Source of the DNA: Escherichia coli
GTDB lineage: Bacteria; Pseudomonadota; Gammaproteobacteria; Enterobacterales; Enterobacteriaceae
Strand: one strand, 5' to 3'
Assembly: GCF_009931435.1 (NCBI RefSeq)
Contig: NZ_CP043414.1
Length of the DNA: 64,000 nucleotides
The notes under the pieces are model-generated. The model was not told where the DNA came from. It was given only the letters and a program-made list of their open reading frames with translations, and ran no database searches. The position numbers and the translations under genes were made by a program. Positions 8,078 to 41,117 of the stretch are shown piece after piece; within the stretch, counting starts at the first letter, position 1; every line of letters starts with the position of its first letter.

Positions 8078-8929
8078 GTGTTAATTATCGAAACCCTGCC
8101 GTTGCTGCGTCAGCAAATTCGCCGCCTGCGAATGGAAGGCAAACGCGTGGCGCTGGTGCCTACTATGGGTAACCTGCACGATGGTCATATGAAGCTGGTC
8201 GACGAAGCCAAAGCCCGCGCCGATGTGGTCGTCGTCAGTATTTTCGTTAACCCGATGCAGTTTGACCGCCCGGAAGATCTGGCTCGTTATCCACGCACTT
8301 TGCAGGAAGACTGCGAGAAACTAAACAAACGTAAAGTGGATCTGGTTTTCGCTCCCTCGGTAAAAGAGATCTATCCGAACGGTACAGAAACCCACACCTA
8401 TGTCGATGTTCCAGGCCTTTCCACCATGCTGGAAGGTGCCAGCCGTCCAGGACATTTTCGCGGCGTATCGACCATCGTCAGCAAACTGTTCAACCTGGTC
8501 CAGCCGGACATCGCCTGCTTCGGTGAAAAGGATTTTCAGCAACTGGCACTGATCCGCAAAATGGTTGCCGATATGGGCTTCGATATTGAGATTGTCGGAG
8601 TGCCGATTATGCGCGCGAAAGACGGTCTGGCGCTCAGTTCCCGTAACGGCTATCTGACGGCGGAACAACGTAAAATTGCGCCGGGTCTGTACAAGGTCTT
8701 AAGTTCAATTGCCGACAAATTGCAGGCTGGCGAACGGGATCTCGATGAAATTATTGCTATTGCCGGGCAAGAATTGAATGAAAAAGGTTTCCGTTCCGAT
8801 GATATTCAGATTCGCGATGCCGACACCTTGCTGGAAATCGCTGAAAACAGCAAACGAGCGGTGATTCTGGTAGCCGCCTGGCTTGGCGATGCTCGCCTGA
8901 TCGACAACAAAATCGTCGAACTGGCGTAA
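8078..8929 (+). CDS. panC: Pantoate--beta-alanine ligase (pantothenate synthetase)
   Basis: 283 aa, [37 protein letters not shown]; GTG start at 8078. Confidence 0.97.
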
Positions 8930-8947
8930 TACTTATACTCTAAATAA

Positions 8948-9062
8948 TTCAAGTTGCAGGAAGGCGGCAAGCGAGTGAATCCCCAGGAGCTTACATAAGT
9001 AAGTGACTGGGGTGAGCGAACGCAGACGCAGCACATGCAACTTGAAGTATGACGAGTATAAC
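8948..9062. repeat. ERIC (enterobacterial repetitive intergenic consensus) element
   Basis: Contains ERIC core GTGAATCCCCAGGAGCTTACATAAGTAAGTGACTGGGGTGAGCG flanked by inverted repeat AAGTTGCA...TGCAACTT; lies between convergent panC and rpnC. Confidence 0.85.
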
Positions 9063-9149
9063 TGGCGCTACGGCTGATGGCGCCAATTATTAATTTGCCC
9101 CACATCATGGCGATGACGTCTGTAAGCGATTATTCATATCGCAGGCAAT

Positions 9150-10070
9150 TTAGTTAAACAGCTTATCAAGCTCAGCAAGAGGTAAATTTGCCATCTCTGC
9201 AACGTCTTCCCGAGACATTCCTTTACTCAGAAGACGCAGGGCGAATTCTTGCCTTTCCTCCTGTCTTCCCAGCTGAATCCCCTTCTCAATCCCCTTCTCA
9301 ATTCCCTTCTCAATTCCCTTCTCTTCAAACCACTGCGCCAACGTCATCATAGACTCCCCTCCCGTTTCCCTGTCTCTCACCACACCATAAAACAAATCCG
9401 CTTGTTCAGTATGACCGCGTTGCAGCATATAGTTTTGCATGGCAACTAACTGACTTCCGCTAGTGTACCCTTCGTCAATCAGCGTGACCAGTTGCTCCAG
9501 CAATAACATTAAGTCGCGCTGGCGAATATGTTTTTGCAGCAGTTCGAGAATCGCAATCCGCCGATGTTGCATGATTTCGTCATCCGGTGTGATAGTGATA
9601 TCCACCAGCGGGAAAGGACTGTTATAGACGCGTCGCGCCAGCTCCGGCGAGTAAAACATATCAAACCAGCACATTGAGAGCGGATAAGGTGTGGCCTCGC
9701 CCTGATAAAACAGAATCGGCACCACCAGCGGCAGCTTATCGTGATCTGCCTCCAGATGCCGGTGCATGGCAGCAATAGAATAACGCATCATGCGAAACGC
9801 CATTTTTTTATCCGGCTTGCTTTGGTGTTCAATCACAACATGTAGATAGCCCGTATTACCCTGCATTTGCACGGAATAGAGCACGTCAGTGCTGTGCCCT
9901 TTCAGGCTTTCTTCAATAAAACTCCCCGACTCAAGATGCAGCGTGTCGAGGTCACACAGTTCGCGTAGCTCCGCTGGCAAATGGATATCCAGAAAGTCGC
10001 GAGCCGTTTCCGCGTGCATTAAAAATTGTTTAAACACCGCATCATGCGGTGTGGTACTCGGTGCATCCAT
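9150..10070 (-). CDS. rpnC: Recombination-promoting nuclease, Rpn/YhgA-like (PD-(D/E)XK, transposase_31 family)
   Basis: 306-aa ORF with Rpn-family N-terminus and C-terminal EKGI tetrapeptide repeats; position between panC and panD as for yadD/rpnC. Exact start uncertain. Confidence 0.85.
   Translation of the reverse strand: MDAPSTTPHDAVFKQFLMHAETARDFLDIHLPAELRELCDLDTLHLESGSFIEESLKGHSTDVLYSVQMQGNTGYLHVVIEHQSKPDKKMAFRMMRYSIAAMHRHLEADHDKLPLVVPILFYQGEATPYPLSMCWFDMFYSPELARRVYNSPFPLVDITITPDDEIMQHRRIAILELLQKHIRQRDLMLLLEQLVTLIDEGYTSGSQLVAMQNYMLQRGHTEQADLFYGVVRDRETGGESMMTLAQWFEEKGIEKGIEKGIEKGIQLGRQEERQEFALRLLSKGMSREDVAEMANLPLAELDKLFN
9278..9323 (-). repeat. In-frame 12-bp tandem repeat (about 3.8 copies) inside rpnC, encoding (EKGI)n
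   Basis: TCCCCTTCTCAA x2, TTCCCTTCTCAA, then partial copy; translated on minus strand as GIEKGIEKGIEKGI. Confidence 0.9.
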
Positions 10071-31138: not shown

Positions 31139-33802
31139 TTACGCCAGACGCGGGTTAACTTTTTCTGCATCGATGTTGAATTTGGCGATTGCGTCAGCAA
31201 CCACTTTCTTATCGATTTCGCCACGTTTAGCCAGTTCGCCCAGCGCCGCAACCACGACATAAGAAGCATCAACTTCGAAGTGGTGACGCAGGTTCTCACG
31301 GCTGTCGGAACGACCGAAGCCATCAGTACCCAGTACGCGGTAGTCGTCAGCCGGTACGTAAGTACGGACCTGCTCAGCGAACAGTTTCATATAGTCGGTA
31401 GATGCCACTGCCGGAGCGTCGTTCATCACCTGAGCGATATACGGAACGCGTGGAGTTTCCAGCGGGTGCAGCATATTCCAGCGTTCACAATCCTGACCAT
31501 CACGCGCCAGTTCGGTGAAGGAGGTCACGCTATATACGTCAGAACCTACGCCATAATCTTTCGCCAGGATCTCTGCCGCTTCACGGACGTGACGCAGGAT
31601 AGAACCGGAGCCCAGCAGCTGAACTTTACCTTTGCTACCTTCAATGGTTTCGAGTTTGTAGATACCTTTACGGATACCTTCCTCAGCACCTTCCGGCATT
31701 GCCGGCATGTGGTAGTTTTCGTTCAGCGTAGTGATGTAGTAGTAAACGTTCTCTTGTTTTTCACCGTACATACGCTCCAGACCGTCATGCATGATGACAG
31801 CAACTTCGTAAGCGTAAGCCGGGTCGTAAGAAATACAGTTCGGGATAGTCAGCGACTGAATGTGGCTGTGACCATCTTCGTGCTGCAGACCTTCGCCGTT
31901 CAGGGTGGTACGACCGGAAGTACCGCCGATCAGGAAGCCACGTGCCTGCTGGTCGCCAGCAGCCCAGCACAAATCGCCGATACGCTGGAAGCCGAACATC
32001 GAGTAATAGATGTAGAACGGAATCATCGGCAGATTGTTGGTGCTGTAAGAAGTCGCCGCTGCCAGCCAGGAACAACCTGCGCCCAGCTCGTTGATCCCTT
32101 CTTGCAGAATCTGACCTTTCTCGTCTTCTTTATAGTAAGCAACCTGCTCGCGGTCCTGCGGGGTGTACTGCTGACCGTTCGGGCTGTAAATACCAATCTG
32201 ACGGAACAGACCTTCCATACCGAAAGTACGCGCTTCGTCGGCGATGATCGGCACCAGACGATCTTTGATCGACTTGTTCTTCAGCATCACGTTCAGGGCA
32301 CGAACGAAAGCGATAGTGGTAGAGATCTCTTTGCTCTGCTCTTCCAGCAGCGCGCCGAAGTCTTGCAAGCTCGGCAGCTCCAGCTTCTCGGTGAAGTTCG
32401 GCTGGCGGCTTGGCAGATAACCGTGCAATTTCTGACGCTGAGCGTGCAGATAGGTATGCTCTTCAGAACCTTCCGGGAAGGTGATGTACGGCAGTTTTTC
32501 GATATCAGCATCAGACACCGGCACATTGAAACGGTCGCGGATATGACGCACGCCGTCCATGTTCATTTTCTTAACCTGGTGCGCGATGTTTTTACCTTCA
32601 GCTGCGTCGCCCATGCCGTAACCTTTAATGGTATGAGCAAGGATTACTGTCGCTTTGCCTTTGGTTTCCTGCGCTTTCTTGAATGCAGCGTAGATTTTCT
32701 TCGGATCGTGACCACCACGGTTCAGCGCCCAGATCTGCTCGTCAGTCCAGTCTGCAACCAGAGCTGCGGTTTCCGGATATTTACCGAAGAAGTGTTCACG
32801 AACATACGCACCATCTTTCGATTTGAAGGTCTGGTAATCGCCGTCAACGGTTTCGTTCATCAGCTGGATCAGTTTACCGCTGGTATCTTTACGCAGCAGT
32901 TCGTCCCAACGGCTACCCCACATCACTTTGATCACGTTCCAGCCAGCACCTTCGAAGATGCCTTCCAGTTCGTTGATGATCTTGCCGTTACCGGTGACCG
33001 GGCCGTCAAGACGCTGCAGGTTACAGTTGATAACGAAGACCAGGTTATCCAGTTTTTCACGGGTAGCGATGGTGATCGCACCTTTGGATTCCGGTTCGTC
33101 CATCTCGCCGTCGCCGAGGAAGGCGTAAACGGTCTGTTTAGAAGTATCTTTCAGGCCACGGTGTTCCAGATATTTCAGGAATTTAGCCTGGTAAATAGCA
33201 CCAATCGGACCCAGACCCATAGATACGGTCGGGAACTGCCAGAATTCCGGCATCAGTTTCGGGTGCGGATAGGAAGAGAGGCCATTGCCGTGAACTTCCT
33301 GACGGAAGTTATCCAGCTGCTCTTGAGTCAGACGACCTTCCAGGAAAGCACGTGCGTAAATGCCCGGGGAGATGTGGCCCTGGAAGTAAACCAGGTCGCC
33401 GCCATCCTGCTCGTTGCGTGCACGGAAGAAGTGGTTAAAGCACACATCATAAATGGTTGCGGACGACTGGAAGGACGCCATGTGGCCGCCCAGTTCGAGG
33501 TCTTTTTTCGACGCACGCAGAACCGTCATGATGGCGTTCCAGCGGATAGCTGAACGAATACGGCGTTCCAGTTCCAGATTACCCGGATACTCCGGTTGTT
33601 CTTCAACGGGGATGGTGTTGATGTAGTTGCTGATACCGGTGCCTGCGGCTACGTTGACACCGCCTTTGCGGGCTTCAGCAAGCAGTTGGTCGATCAGATA
33701 CTGAGCACGCTCAACACCTTCTTCACGGATGACCGATTCGATCGCCTGGAGCCAGTCGCGAGTTTCGATCGGATCCACGTCATTTGGGAAACGTTCTGAC
33801 AT
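31139..33802 (-). CDS. aceE: Pyruvate dehydrogenase E1 component
   Basis: 887 aa, [29 protein letters not shown]. Confidence 0.97.
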
Positions 33803-33962
33803 GGGTTATTCCTTATCTATCTAATAACGTTGAGTTTTCTGGAACCTGTCCCATTGAACTCTCGCCGGAAAGCTCAATAAGACAGGTTCTACGTTTAGTT
33901 GCCGCGCTTTTATATGCGCTTGATTTACAACATCTTCTGGATAATTTTTACCAGAAAAATCA

Positions 33963-34727
33963 CTAATTCTTTCGTTGTTCCAGACGACGCAGAGAACGCT
34001 CACGGCGGCTCTCTTCACGGCTTCTGTCGAGCAAAATTTCTTCGATAAAGGCCAGATGGCGATGCGATGCTTCGCGCGCTTCTTCCGGCTTACCGGCCAT
34101 AATCGCTTCGAATATGCGAGTGCGGTGACTACTCACCAGCGGCAGCATCTCGCGACGCGAATAGAGCAATTCGAAGTTCTGACGGACATTCTGAGCCAAC
34201 ATCGGCTCCATACACCTTAGCAGATGAAGCAGAACTACATTGTGGGCTGCTTCGGTGACGGCAATCTGATACTGGAGGACGGCGTTTGATTCCGCGTCCA
34301 GATCGCCAGACTGCTGCGCCAGCTCTATGGCGTGGTGGAGTTCACGGATGCGTTCCTTGTCTTCATCGGTACTACGCAGCGCGGCGTAATAGGCGGCGAT
34401 ACCTTCCAGGGCGTGTCGTGTTTCGAGCAAGTCATACTGTGATTCAGGATGGTCGGAGAGCAGCTCCACCAGCGGATCGCTGAAACTTTGCCAGAGGCTG
34501 CTCTGAACAAAAGTGCCGCCACCCTGGCGACGAAGCAACAAGCCCTTTGCTTCGAGACGTTGAATCGCCTCACGCAAGGAGGGACGGGAGACGTCGAACT
34601 GTTTCGCCAGTTCGCGTTCCGGTGGGAGTTTTTCGCCCGGGCGGAGTGTGCCTTCGAGGATCAAAAACTCCAGTTGCTGCTCAATCACATCGGAGAGTTT
34701 TGGTTGGCGGATTTTGCTGTAGGCCAT
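33963..34727 (-). CDS. pdhR: Pyruvate dehydrogenase complex repressor (GntR family)
   Basis: 254 aa from [26 protein letters not shown]; GntR-type HTH; track ORF begins at an upstream TTG. Confidence 0.95.
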
Positions 34728-39719: not shown

Positions 39720-41117
39720 ATGAATATTCCACAGCTCACCGCCCTGTGTCTGCGTTATCAGGGAGTCTTGCTGGATGCCAGCGAAGAGGTGGTTCATGTT
39801 GCGGTGGTTGATGCCCCTTCGCATGAGCTACTGGACGCATTGCATTTCGCTACCACCAAACGTATTGAGATCACCTGCTGGACGCGCCAACAAATGGAAG
39901 GTCACGCCAGTCGCACCCAACAGACATTGCCCGTAGCTATTCATGAGAAGCATCAGCCCAAAGCAGAGTTGCTGACTCGAACGTTACAATCTGCGCTGGA
40001 ACAACGCGCGTCTGATATTCATATCGAACCAGCGGACAATGCCTACCGCATCCGCTTGCGTATCGACGGTGTATTGCATCCTTTACCGGATGTTTTACCG
40101 GATGTTTTACCGGATGCCGGAGTCGCATTAACCGCCAGATTAAAAGTGCTGGGCAACCTGGATATTGCGGAACATCGCCTGCCGCAGGACGGGCAATTCA
40201 CTGTCGAACTGGCAGGAAACGCCGTCTCATTTCGTATTGCGACCTTACCATGCCAGGGTGGTGAAAAGGTGGTATTAAGGTTGTTACAGCAGGTGAGCCA
40301 GGCACTGGATATCAACACGCTGGGGATGCAGCCGTTACAACTGGCGGACTTTGCTCATGCCTTGCAACAACCACAGGGACTGGTGCTGGTAACTGGCCCT
40401 ACAGGCAGCGGCAAAACGGTCACGCTTTATAGTGCCCTGCAAACGCTGAATACCGCTGACATTAATATTTGTAGCGTCGAAGATCCGGTTGAGATCCCCA
40501 TAGCCGGACTAAACCAGACGCAAATCCATCCGCGTGCCGGTCTTACCTTTCAGGGCGTTTTGCGTGCGTTATTGCGCCAGGACCCTGACGTCATCATGAT
40601 CGGAGAGATCCGCGATGGCGAAACAGCAGAGATCGCTATTAAAGCGGCGCAAACCGGTCACCTGGTGTTGTCTACCCTACACACCAATTCCACCACTGAA
40701 ACGCTGGTACGTTTACAGCAAATGGGAGTCGCCCGCTGGATGCTCTCATCGGCGCTTACGCTGGTAATAGCCCAGCGTCTGGTACGCAAACTTTGCCCGC
40801 ATTGTCGCCAGCAGCAAGGGGAGCCCATCCATATTCCAGACAATGTATGGCCGTCGCCGCTGCCCCGCTGGCAAGCACCCGGTTGTGTACATTGCTACCA
40901 CGGTTTTTATGGTCGCACGGCCTTATTTGAAGTTCTGCCCATAACACCGTTCATACGTCAGCTTATTTCCGCTAATACCGACGTTGAATCGCTGGAAACG
41001 CACGCCCGACAGGCGGGTATGCGAACGCTTTTTGAAAACGGCTGCCTGGCCGTGGAGCAAGGCTTAACCACCTTTGAAGAGTTAATCCGCGTATTGGGAA
41101 TGCCGTATGGCGAGTAA
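39720..41117 (+). CDS. hofB: Type IV pilus assembly ATPase (GspE/PilB family)
   Basis: 465 aa; Walker A GPTGSGKT; C-terminal CxxC pairs; follows ppdD. Confidence 0.9.
   Translation: MNIPQLTALCLRYQGVLLDASEEVVHVAVVDAPSHELLDALHFATTKRIEITCWTRQQMEGHASRTQQTLPVAIHEKHQPKAELLTRTLQSALEQRASDIHIEPADNAYRIRLRIDGVLHPLPDVLPDVLPDAGVALTARLKVLGNLDIAEHRLPQDGQFTVELAGNAVSFRIATLPCQGGEKVVLRLLQQVSQALDINTLGMQPLQLADFAHALQQPQGLVLVTGPTGSGKTVTLYSALQTLNTADINICSVEDPVEIPIAGLNQTQIHPRAGLTFQGVLRALLRQDPDVIMIGEIRDGETAEIAIKAAQTGHLVLSTLHTNSTTETLVRLQQMGVARWMLSSALTLVIAQRLVRKLCPHCRQQQGEPIHIPDNVWPSPLPRWQAPGCVHCYHGFYGRTALFEVLPITPFIRQLISANTDVESLETHARQAGMRTLFENGCLAVEQGLTTFEELIRVLGMPYGE
40083..40118 (+). repeat. In-frame 12-bp tandem repeat (3 copies) in hofB encoding LPDV-LPDV-LPDA
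   Basis: TTACCGGATGTT x2 then TTACCGGATGCC. Confidence 0.9.

What the first reader, a model, noticed from the sequence alone, without database searches (positions are those of the whole stretch)
9278..9323. In-frame 12-bp tandem repeat in rpnC encoding (EKGI)n
About 3.8 near-perfect copies of TCCCCTTCTCAA inside the C-terminal region of the Rpn-family nuclease gene, translating to GIEKGIEKGIEKGI. Perfect short tandem repeats are slippage-prone, so copy number may differ between strains and change the C-terminal tail length. The track length (306 aa) differs from the about 300 aa I recall for K-12 YadD, which would fit repeat-number variation, but I cannot verify this from memory.
Basis: partly seen in the sequence, partly recalled or inferred. 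Interest (0 to 1): 0.3.

Follow-up and report, generated by a model that had tools for sequence, protein, structure and literature searches.

The report
Known variable repeat in RpnC antitoxin helix
The 12-base repeat is real and its copy number does differ between E. coli strains (0 to 9 copies), but a 2023 paper already described it for this gene: it sets which small antitoxin protein can switch off the RpnC toxin nuclease.

Summary
Window 9276..9323 holds four tandem 12-bp units (one synonymous mismatch). They lie in frame in rpnC (9150..10070, minus strand, 306 aa) and encode (EKGI)4 at residues 250-265.

Across 5,426 complete E. coli genomes the unit count runs from 0 to 9. About 63% have 2 copies, as K-12 does. 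About 28% have 0 and instead expand a neighbouring RQEV repeat. Only 15 genomes (0.3%) have 4. K-12 RpnC is 300 aa because it has two fewer units (-8 aa) and a tail 2 aa longer; the start codon is the same.

This is already published. Zhong et al., PNAS 2023 (PMC10400941) showed that rpn genes are gene-within-gene toxin-antitoxin systems. An internal start codon (here ATG 9350, preceded by a Shine-Dalgarno sequence at 9363..9354) yields the small antitoxin RpnC-S. The four-residue repeat lies in its first helix. Adding one KGIE unit to K-12 RpnC abolished cross-neutralisation.

New here are a population count and one lineage result. The CFT073, UPEC 26-1, ATCC 25922 and C25 alleles have identical flanks over 2.5 kb but 5, 6, 7 or 9 units. 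That pattern points to replication slippage.

Verdict: real, ordinary, already known.

The parts
9150..10070 (-). rpnC ORF encoding full-length RpnC (RpnC-L, the toxin), 306 aa
   Evidence: ORF list. PF04754 at E=2e-87. TIGR01784 at 289 bits. 93% aa identity to K-12 RpnC b0132. RefSeq matches are annotated rpnC.
9450..10052 (-). YhgA-like PD-(D/E)xK nuclease domain, residues 7-207
   Evidence: Pfam PF04754 aligns to residues 7-207, profile positions 1-201 of 203.
9354..9363 (-). Shine-Dalgarno sequence GGGAGGGGAG for the internal start; its GGAGG core lies 7 nt upstream of the ATG
   Evidence: Read from the sequence. Conserved in the 14 alleles aligned over this stretch, with only single-base variants GGGAGGGAAG and GGGAGGGATG. 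The internal translation start of rpnC is shown by ribosome profiling in K-12 (PMC10400941, Fig. 2D).
9150..9350 (-). Nested in-frame ORF rpnC-S (the antitoxin RpnC-S), 66 aa from the ATG ATG at 9350..9345 (M241/M242) to the shared stop
   Evidence: Translation is MMTLAQWFEEKGIEKGIEKGIEKGIQLGRQEERQEFALRLLSKGMSREDVAEMANLPLAELDKLFN. SPA-tagged RpnC-S was detected in K-12 (PMC10400941).
9276..9323 (-). The finding itself: four 12-bp units (GAGAAGGGAATT x2, GAGAAGGGGATT x2) encoding EKGI x4. These are residues 250-265 of RpnC-L and 10-25 of RpnC-S.
   Evidence: TRF. Codon-level reading. Copy number is 0-9 in other E. coli genomes.
9243..9266 (-). Adjacent second period-12 tract with two degenerate units, AGACAGGAGGAA and AGGCAAGAATTC (RQEE RQEF). 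Other strains expand this tract to 7-8 (RQEV) units, and those strains have no EKGI unit.
   Evidence: Codon alignment of alleles L004, L005, L006, L011 and L013 against the window.
9153..9212 (-). Conserved distal part of RpnC-S (predicted helices 2 and 3; weakly similar to helix-turn-helix (HTH) domains)
   Evidence: The AF2 linked-dimer model has helices at RpnC-S residues 47-54 and 58-66. Pfam HTH_7 and HTH_3 hits are below threshold. Columns R39..D62 are invariant across RpnC-S and RpnC-Ss variants.

Best explanation
The repeat is the hypervariable 'four-amino-acid repeat' of the RpnC toxin / RpnC-S antitoxin gene-within-gene system. The full-length product RpnC-L is a toxic YhgA-like PD-(D/E)xK DNA endonuclease. 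An internal Shine-Dalgarno sequence and ATG (9363..9345) yield a 66-aa protein, RpnC-S, identical to the C-terminal domain of RpnC-L. RpnC-S binds RpnC-L through the shared long first helix and blocks its activity. The (EKGI)n tract starts at residue 10 of RpnC-S, inside that helix. Each 12-bp unit lengthens the helix by four residues. From ideal helix geometry that is about 6 Å and about 1.1 turns.

One stretch of DNA encodes both partners. A change in unit number therefore alters toxin and antitoxin together and keeps them matched. It also uncouples them from RpnS proteins of a different length.

Unit number most likely changes by replication slippage within runs of identical units. The window allele carries 4 units, a rare state found in 15 of 5,426 genomes.

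Shown by others for K-12 rpnC: translation of RpnC-S, and loss of cross-neutralisation after adding one KGIE unit.

Shown here: the anatomy, conservation of the internal start, the 0-9 range, and the slippage-like pattern.

Inferred: that the 4-unit pair behaves like the tested 2- and 3-unit pairs, and that the selective driver is phage-related.
For: Family and orthology.

The internal SD and ATG ATG sit at gene offset 720 in the alleles read (one frameshifted pseudogene at 721).

Published experiments on this gene (PMC10400941):
- Ribosome profiling and SPA tagging detect RpnC-S.
- Repeats begin 8-20 residues after the initiating Met.
- The RpnA-S crystal structure (7TH0) places the insertion point in the dimer-interface helix.

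Here the tract starts at residue 10 of RpnC-S. It has the stated composition of one hydrophobic residue plus charged residues and Gly.

Population variation of 0-9 units: with sequences verified.

Slippage signature: CFT073 (6 units), UPEC 26-1 (5), ATCC 25922 (7) and C25 (9) have 0 mismatches in 1,260 bp on each side. They differ only in the run of identical GAGAAGGGAATT units, which has 3, 2, 4 and 6 copies.

An AF2 model of a linker-joined RpnC-S dimer gives one continuous helix over residues 4-42, spanning the whole repeat, then two short helices. pLDDT is 79-85 in the protein parts.

The C-terminal domain diverges more from K-12 than the N-terminal 240 residues (alignment).
Against: Nothing here tests function for the 4-unit allele.

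Structural support is weak. Only one of five linked-dimer models was confident (72, 58, 40, 40, 37). The monomer model put the repeat in a low-confidence coil (pLDDT below 50). Foldseek did not significantly match 7TH0 (rank 2, TM 0.69 on the target, E=6). The dimer model's matches were all at E above 3. PDB sequence searches missed 7TH0.

The simple sigma-70 scan found no internal promoter upstream of the internal start, although the paper cites dRNA-seq start sites inside all rpn genes.

Anti-phage activity was shown only for plasmid RpnP2, not for RpnC.

No RpnC-S homologue was found in 50,697 phage records, so a phage-encoded mimic as the driver has no support.

Mosaic flanks among alleles show that recombination also shapes this region.
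Confidence: 0.85

Rival explanations
1. Neutral length polymorphism. The tract is a tolerated low-complexity segment of the C-terminal tail. It drifts by slippage, and the count has no functional consequence.
For: All counts from 0 to 9 exist in apparently intact genes. A 12-bp unit can never break the frame, so nothing purges length variants. No selection test was run here.
Against: Adding one KGIE unit to K-12 RpnC-S or RpnC-L abolished neutralisation, and adding it to both restored it (PMC10400941, Fig. 4D). The same kind of tract recurs in all E. coli Rpn paralogues and in distant phyla. Two different repeat families (EKGI and RQEV) expand at the same helix position in different alleles.
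Confidence: 0.07
2. Contingency (phase-variable) locus. The tract mutates at high frequency within a culture, so populations always contain several length variants, as the reader's 'length heterogeneity in long-read data' suggests.
For: Perfect 12-bp units are present. Four length alleles occur on one SNP-free 2.5-kb haplotype, so the rate exceeds the point-substitution rate.
Against: Independent assemblies of one strain agree. Nissle 1917 and its derivatives all span 192 nt (6 units). ATCC 25922, Seattle 1946 and JCM 5491 all span 204 (7 units). CFT073 spans 192 in four assemblies. K-12 derivatives (MG1655, C600, J53, ER1709, AS19) all span 144 (2 units). Length changes cannot switch expression on or off because the unit is a multiple of three. 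Classical contingency tracts have shorter units and more copies (my own knowledge).
Confidence: 0.05
3. Copy number changes mainly by recombination or gene conversion rather than slippage. Possible sources are the downstream standalone rpnC-Ss copy, imported alleles, or RpnC-L's own recombination-promoting activity.
For: Alleles are mosaic. The same right flank (QQGRQEVSQEF or QQGRQEERQEF) and the same C-terminal ends occur with different unit numbers. Alleles that lack rpnC-Ss carry 3' ends and downstream sequence resembling those of rpnC-Ss. EcN_Sk has a first unit replaced by the sequence of another unit. The authors raise RpnL involvement as a possibility.
Against: In the CFT073-type haplotype only the run of identical units changes (2, 3, 4 or 6 copies), with zero flanking differences in 2.5 kb. 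The rpnC-Ss repeat units (KGFQ) have a different sequence and cannot donate EKGI units.
Confidence: 0.2

Closest known systems
RpnC-L/RpnC-S intragenic toxin-antitoxin of E. coli K-12 (Zhong, Hickman, Storz, Dyda et al., PNAS 2023, PMC10400941)
   Same: It is the same gene at the same locus (panD-rpnC-panC), with 93% aa identity. It has the same internal SD and ATG and the same KGIE/EKGI unit at the same position. [quoted passage not shown]
   Different: The window has 4 units and K-12 has 2. The right flank reads QLGRQEERQEF instead of QQGRQEVSQEF, and the tail is 2 aa shorter. An ERIC element (enterobacterial repetitive intergenic consensus) lies downstream. The 4-unit pair itself has not been tested.
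RpnA-S crystal structure (PDB 7TH0)
   Same: The linked-dimer AF2 model has the same three-helix architecture: a long helix 1 followed by two short helices. The repeat maps to helix 1, as stated in the paper.
   Different: No sequence-level match, and the structural match is not significant. K-12 RpnA-S has no repeat at the insertion point.
EcoR124I / EcoR124II HsdS TAEL repeats (type I restriction specificity subunit; cited in PMC10400941)
   Same: An in-frame 12-bp unit encodes a four-residue repeat in a helix. One unit more or less changes specificity. The tract acts as a length ruler.
   Different: There the ruler sets the spacer length of the DNA target (N6 versus N7). Here it sets protein-protein pairing between a toxin and its antitoxin. 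The protein families are unrelated.
Simple-sequence contingency loci of Haemophilus and Neisseria (my own knowledge)
   Same: Tandem repeats inside genes change by slippage and create diversity in host-parasite interfaces.
   Different: Those use 1-8-bp units that shift the frame or promoter spacing to switch genes on and off at high frequency. This tract is always in frame, is short, and is stable within a strain.

Membership tests
Rpn (YhgA-like) recombination-promoting nuclease family; RpnC orthologue | YhgA-like PD-(D/E)xK domain (Pfam PF04754; TIGR01784) | tested here: met
   PF04754 at E=2e-87 over residues 7-207. TIGR01784 at 288.9 bits against a cutoff of 52.1.
Rpn (YhgA-like) recombination-promoting nuclease family; RpnC orthologue | Orthology to K-12 rpnC (b0132): same neighbours and high identity | tested here: met
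   panC 8078..8929 and panD 10344..10724 flank the gene as in NC_000913.3. 285 of 306 aa are identical. 5,424 of 5,426 genomes match, and the listed chromosomal matches are annotated rpnC or Rpn family nuclease.
Rpn (YhgA-like) recombination-promoting nuclease family; RpnC orthologue | DNA endonuclease activity and toxicity | not testable with these tools
   Shown for K-12 Rpn proteins in the literature; not assayed for this allele.
RpnL/RpnS gene-within-gene toxin-antitoxin | In-frame internal start codon with a ribosome-binding site at the start of the C-terminal domain | tested here: met
   GGGAGGGGAG at 9363..9354 and ATG ATG at 9350..9345. The SD and ATG are conserved in 14 alleles, and the ATG ATG is present in every further allele read.
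RpnL/RpnS gene-within-gene toxin-antitoxin | The small protein is actually translated from the internal start | not testable with these tools
   Shown for K-12 rpnC by Onc112/retapamulin ribosome profiling and an SPA-tag immunoblot (PMC10400941).
RpnL/RpnS gene-within-gene toxin-antitoxin | Internal transcription start giving a short, more abundant transcript | tested here: inconclusive
   The consensus sigma-70 scan found no site on the minus strand between 9351 and 10070. The paper cites dRNA-seq start sites inside all rpn genes.
RpnL/RpnS gene-within-gene toxin-antitoxin | Four-residue repeats (one hydrophobic residue plus charged residues or Gly) starting 8-20 residues after the RpnS Met | tested here: met
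   EKGI x4 starts at residue 10 of RpnC-S. The criterion is quoted from the paper.
RpnL/RpnS gene-within-gene toxin-antitoxin | Repeat number varies among strains of one species | tested here: met
   0-9 units in 5,426 genomes. Estimated counts: n=0 about 1,540; n=1 about 283; n=2 about 3,400; n=3 26; n=4 15; n>=5 144.
RpnL/RpnS gene-within-gene toxin-antitoxin | RpnS is a three-helix bundle that dimerises through a long helix 1 containing the repeat (7TH0-like) | tested here: inconclusive
   The linked-dimer AF2 model has helices at 4-42, 47-54 and 58-66 with pLDDT about 80, but only 1 of 5 models was confident. The monomer model was poor. Foldseek against 7TH0 gave TM 0.69 and E=6.
RpnL/RpnS gene-within-gene toxin-antitoxin | Only an RpnS with the matching repeat number neutralises its RpnL | not testable with these tools
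   Shown for K-12 RpnC with and without one added KGIE unit (Fig. 4D); not tested for 4 units.
Anti-phage defence system | Protects against phage infection | not testable with these tools
   Shown only for plasmid RpnP2-LS. The only PADLOC-DB 2.0 hit is a weak match of the C-terminal region to a 'putative invertase' model (E=1e-4).
Phase-variable contingency locus | A repeat change switches expression (frameshift or promoter spacing) and is unstable within a strain | tested here: not met
   The unit is 12 bp, so the frame is always kept. Repeated assemblies of Nissle 1917, ATCC 25922, CFT073 and K-12 derivatives show one count each.

The most novel reading that the evidence does not exclude
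The generator of RpnC repeat diversity, which the 2023 paper left open, is plain replication slippage within runs of identical 12-bp units, and it runs faster than point substitution. One SNP-free 2.5-kb haplotype (CFT073, UPEC 26-1, ATCC 25922, C25) carries 5, 6, 7 or 9 units, and the difference lies only in the pure GAGAAGGGAATT run. On this reading the toxin-antitoxin specificity dial is a fast-evolving but not phase-variable character. Rare states such as the window's 4 units have arisen independently on several backgrounds. The count could also serve as a fine-scale lineage marker.
Probability: 0.55. Interest if true: 0.3.

Novelty: already known. Interest (0 to 1): 0.15.

Why it matters
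The tract matters biologically. It tunes which antitoxin can silence a toxic nuclease, and it is a striking example of a protein-length 'ruler' encoded by a short DNA repeat inside overlapping genes. That was established in 2023 for this gene and this unit, so the finding adds no new kind of element.

This analysis adds three smaller things:
- A census of unit number across 5,426 complete genomes. Two units dominate, 4 is among the rarest states, and the maximum is 9.
- Evidence that length changes outpace point mutation within one haplotype while staying stable within strains.
- The resolution of the 306 versus 300 aa discrepancy.

Tried and rejected
1. PDB sequence searches with full-length RpnC and with RpnC-S did not retrieve RpnA-S (7TH0). 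The only hits were a weak Trp-repressor match and designed-repeat or ArsR-like matches.

2. The AF2 monomer of RpnC-S, built from a 12-sequence alignment, had pLDDT 64.5 with the repeat region below 50. It was judged uninformative. Foldseek listed 7TH0 second but not significantly. The linked-dimer model gave no significant PDB match, only weak local resemblance to HTH domains.

3. The promoter scan found no internal promoter.

4. tblastn of RpnC-S against 50,697 phage records found no match, so the idea of phage-encoded RpnS mimics got no support.

5. The paper's supplementary files are not held, so I could not read its reported repeat range.

6. Counting alleles from BLAST identity bands alone was unreliable when query and subject differed by two or more units. 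With a strict E-value cutoff, alignments that must cross a gap of 24 nt or more are dropped before final extension (local simulation). I therefore relied on three things: subject-span minus query-span in listed rows, queries within one unit of the target class, and a 60-row systematic sample.

7. I first suspected rpnC was unusually divergent, because only 2 genomes are at least 99% identical. That was rejected: the flanking panC is even more divergent, at about 93%.

8. Assembly artefact was rejected. The tract is 48 bp, and counts agree across many independent complete assemblies.

Full report
**1. The observation**

Window 9276..9323 contains four head-to-tail 12-bp units: TRF period 12, 4.0 copies, 97% matches, no indels.

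On the coding (minus) strand the units read GAGAAGGGAATT, GAGAAGGGAATT, GAGAAGGGGATT, GAGAAGGGGATT. The single mismatch is a synonymous Gly codon change.

A lag-12 self-match of 36 positions with one mismatch compares with a maximum of 13 in 200 simulated windows. The array is therefore not chance.

It lies in frame in ORF 9150..10070(-), 306 aa, and encodes EKGI x4 at residues 250-265.

**2. The gene**

The ORF is rpnC (formerly yadD):
- Pfam PF04754 (YhgA-like) at E=2e-87 over residues 7-207.
- TIGR01784 Rpn family at 289 bits against a cutoff of 52.
- 285 of 306 residues identical to K-12 RpnC.
- The same panD-rpnC-panC arrangement as NC_000913.3.
- 5,424 of 5,426 complete E. coli genomes have a match.

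**3. The 306 versus 300 aa question**

K-12 rpnC is 903 nt, or 300 aa. The start codon is the same in both. K-12 has two EKGI units where the window has four (+8 aa). K-12 ends ...DKVINLI and the window ends ...DKLFN (-2 aa).

The refuting scenario, an identical count with a different start, is excluded.

**4. Copy number across strains**

I read 27 alleles directly. I then queried all 5,426 complete genomes with synthetic 60 nt + n units + 60 nt probes. Alleles were classified by subject span minus query span in the listed rows, and by identity band where query and subject differ by at most one unit.

| Units | Genomes | Source |
|---|---|---|
| 0 | about 1,540 (28%), by difference | see text |
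| 1 | about 283 | |
| 2 | about 3,400 (63%; includes K-12 and O157:H7) | |
| 3 | 26 (one a frameshifted pseudogene) | |
| 4 | 15 | |
| 5 or more | 144 | |

A 60-row systematic sample of the 144 gives roughly 14 with five units, 72 with six (CFT073, Nissle 1917), 34 with seven (ATCC 25922), 14 with eight (E2348/69) and 10 with nine (C25, ChlosBP-23-1). No genome in the collection showed more than nine.

An independent 39-row sample from the whole-gene search agrees: 26 with two units, 10 with none, 2 with one, and 1 with four.

Alleles with no EKGI unit instead expand the neighbouring period-12 tract to 7-8 (RQEV) units. The window has two degenerate units of that tract at 9243..9266.

The band counts for classes two or more units away from a probe are unreliable. 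A strict E-value cutoff removes alignments that must cross long gaps (simulation). I did not use them.

**5. Tempo and mode**

CFT073 (6 units), UPEC 26-1 (5), ATCC 25922 (7) and C25 (9) have zero mismatches in 1,260 bp on either side of the tract. They differ only in how many identical GAGAAGGGAATT units precede a fixed EKGM-EKGI-EKGI end: 3, 2, 4 and 6. This is the signature of slippage in a perfect run. It shows that length changes faster than point substitution.

Every listed assembly of one strain has one count:
- Nissle 1917 and engineered derivatives: 6.
- ATCC 25922, Seattle 1946 and JCM 5491: 7.
- CFT073: 6.
- K-12 derivatives: 2.

So the tract is not phase-variable on laboratory timescales.

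Four-unit alleles occur on at least three backgrounds: the window with NZ_AP027764.1, then L018, then L019. This implies independent origins. The window and its nearest relative (99.7% identical over the gene) differ in the second unit, GGA versus GGG. E2348/69 and ChlosBP-23-1 carry 8-9 degenerate units such as EKGM, ERGI, VKGI and EIGI, which look like older arrays.

**6. What the tract is**

This is published. Zhong et al., PNAS 2023 (PMC10400941), with a commentary (PMC10400984), show the following:
- rpn genes are gene-within-gene toxin-antitoxin systems.
- An internal translation start produces RpnS, which is identical to the C-terminal domain of the toxic nuclease RpnL.
- RpnS binds RpnL and blocks it.
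- Ribosome profiling and SPA tagging detect RpnC-S in K-12.
- The shared region varies 'by four amino acid repeats' beginning 8-20 residues after the RpnS Met, within the long first helix of the RpnA-S crystal structure (7TH0).
- For RpnC specifically, inserting one KGIE unit into only one partner abolishes neutralisation, and inserting it into both restores it.

The window has the same anatomy. The SD GGGAGGGGAG lies at 9363..9354 and ATG ATG at 9350..9345 (M241/M242). Both are conserved in the alleles aligned over that stretch. They give a 66-aa RpnC-S whose repeat starts at residue 10.

**7. Structural checks made here**

PDB sequence searches did not find 7TH0.

An AF2 monomer was poor: pLDDT 64.5, with the repeat region below 50. 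Foldseek ranked 7TH0 second with TM 0.69 on the target but E=6.

A linker-joined dimer model gave a continuous helix over residues 4-42 that covers the whole repeat, followed by two short helices. pLDDT was about 80 in the protein parts, but only one of five models was confident. It had no significant PDB match.

Sub-threshold HTH hits in the last 35 residues echo the paper's HHpred remark. I rate fold membership as inconclusive and rely on the paper.

**8. Mechanism adopted**

Each unit adds four residues to helix 1. From ideal helix geometry that is about 6 Å and 400 degrees, a 40-degree phase advance per unit; this figure is inferred.

One stretch of DNA encodes both partners, so a slippage event changes toxin and antitoxin together. 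They stay matched to each other but become insulated from RpnS proteins of other lengths.

The selective driver is unknown. The authors suggest a phage factor, and the commentary suggests insulation between paralogues. I found no RpnC-S homologue in 50,697 phage genomes. Anti-phage activity has been shown only for plasmid RpnP2.

**9. Rivals**

- Neutral polymorphism is contradicted by the published mismatch experiment.
- Contingency-locus behaviour is contradicted by within-strain stability and by frame preservation.
- Recombination clearly shapes the region: flanks are mosaic, and alleles lacking the standalone rpnC-Ss copy look like rpnC/rpnC-Ss fusions. It cannot explain the changes on the SNP-free haplotype.
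- Assembly artefact is excluded by the 48-bp length and by concordant assemblies.

**10. Verdict**

It is already described in the literature for this gene and this unit.

The census and the slippage signature are modest additions. The mechanism of expansion was explicitly left open by the authors, and that is the only place where a small amount of novelty remains.

Noticed in passing
window 8934..9058: A 125-bp insertion relative to K-12 lies in the rpnC-panC spacer and looks like an ERIC/IRU repeat element. The ERIC1R primer sequence (recalled from memory) matches exactly at 8975..8996 on the minus strand. The element folds into a -45 kcal/mol hairpin. O157:H7 and another strain carry a longer version at the same site.
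   Followed up: partly
window 40082..40116: A perfect 12-bp x2.9 tandem repeat (TTTACCGGATGT) sits in frame in a 465-aa ORF (39720..41117, + strand) that resembles a secretion or pilus ATPase. It encodes (LPDV)n, a second four-residue repeat tract in this window. I did not check whether it varies between strains.
   Followed up: no
window 27154..27385: A 96-bp x2.4 tandem repeat (86% matches) lies inside a 581-aa ORF (25777..27522, + strand). It encodes a 32-residue repeat rich in Gln, Arg and Glu.
   Followed up: no
window 8078..10724 versus 30000..34000: panC is only 92-94% identical and panD about 95.5% identical to most E. coli. The pdhR-aceEF region is about 97.7% identical, and only 5 genomes reach 99% or more there. 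The window therefore comes from an uncommon lineage (nearest: NZ_AP027764.1, strain 2017-02-2CC), and the pan-rpnC neighbourhood is extra-divergent.
   Followed up: partly
loci L004, L005, L006, L010, L011, L016, L022, L027 (between rpnC and panC); absent from the window: Many strains carry a standalone second antitoxin gene, rpnC-Ss (65-77 aa), with its own four-residue repeats: (KGFQ) in 1-2 copies and, in L027, (RQEV)3. RefSeq labels the same DNA as 'hypothetical protein', as 'RpnC/YadD family protein', or as a partial 'transposase' pseudogene.
   Followed up: partly
locus L015 (NZ_CP172017.1, strain EcN_Sk): This genome is named as a Nissle derivative. It differs from CFT073 by 69 substitutions in the 2.5 kb around rpnC, whereas the UPEC 26-1, ATCC 25922 and C25 loci are identical to CFT073 over the same stretch. 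Its first repeat unit also differs. The cause could be local recombination or an assembly or strain-identity issue.
   Followed up: no
locus L021 (NZ_CP069710.1, strain EA2): This 3-unit rpnC allele is annotated as frameshifted. A 1-nt insertion upstream of the internal start disrupts RpnC-L but leaves the RpnC-S reading frame and its SD intact. The strain would then have an antitoxin-only state.
   Followed up: no
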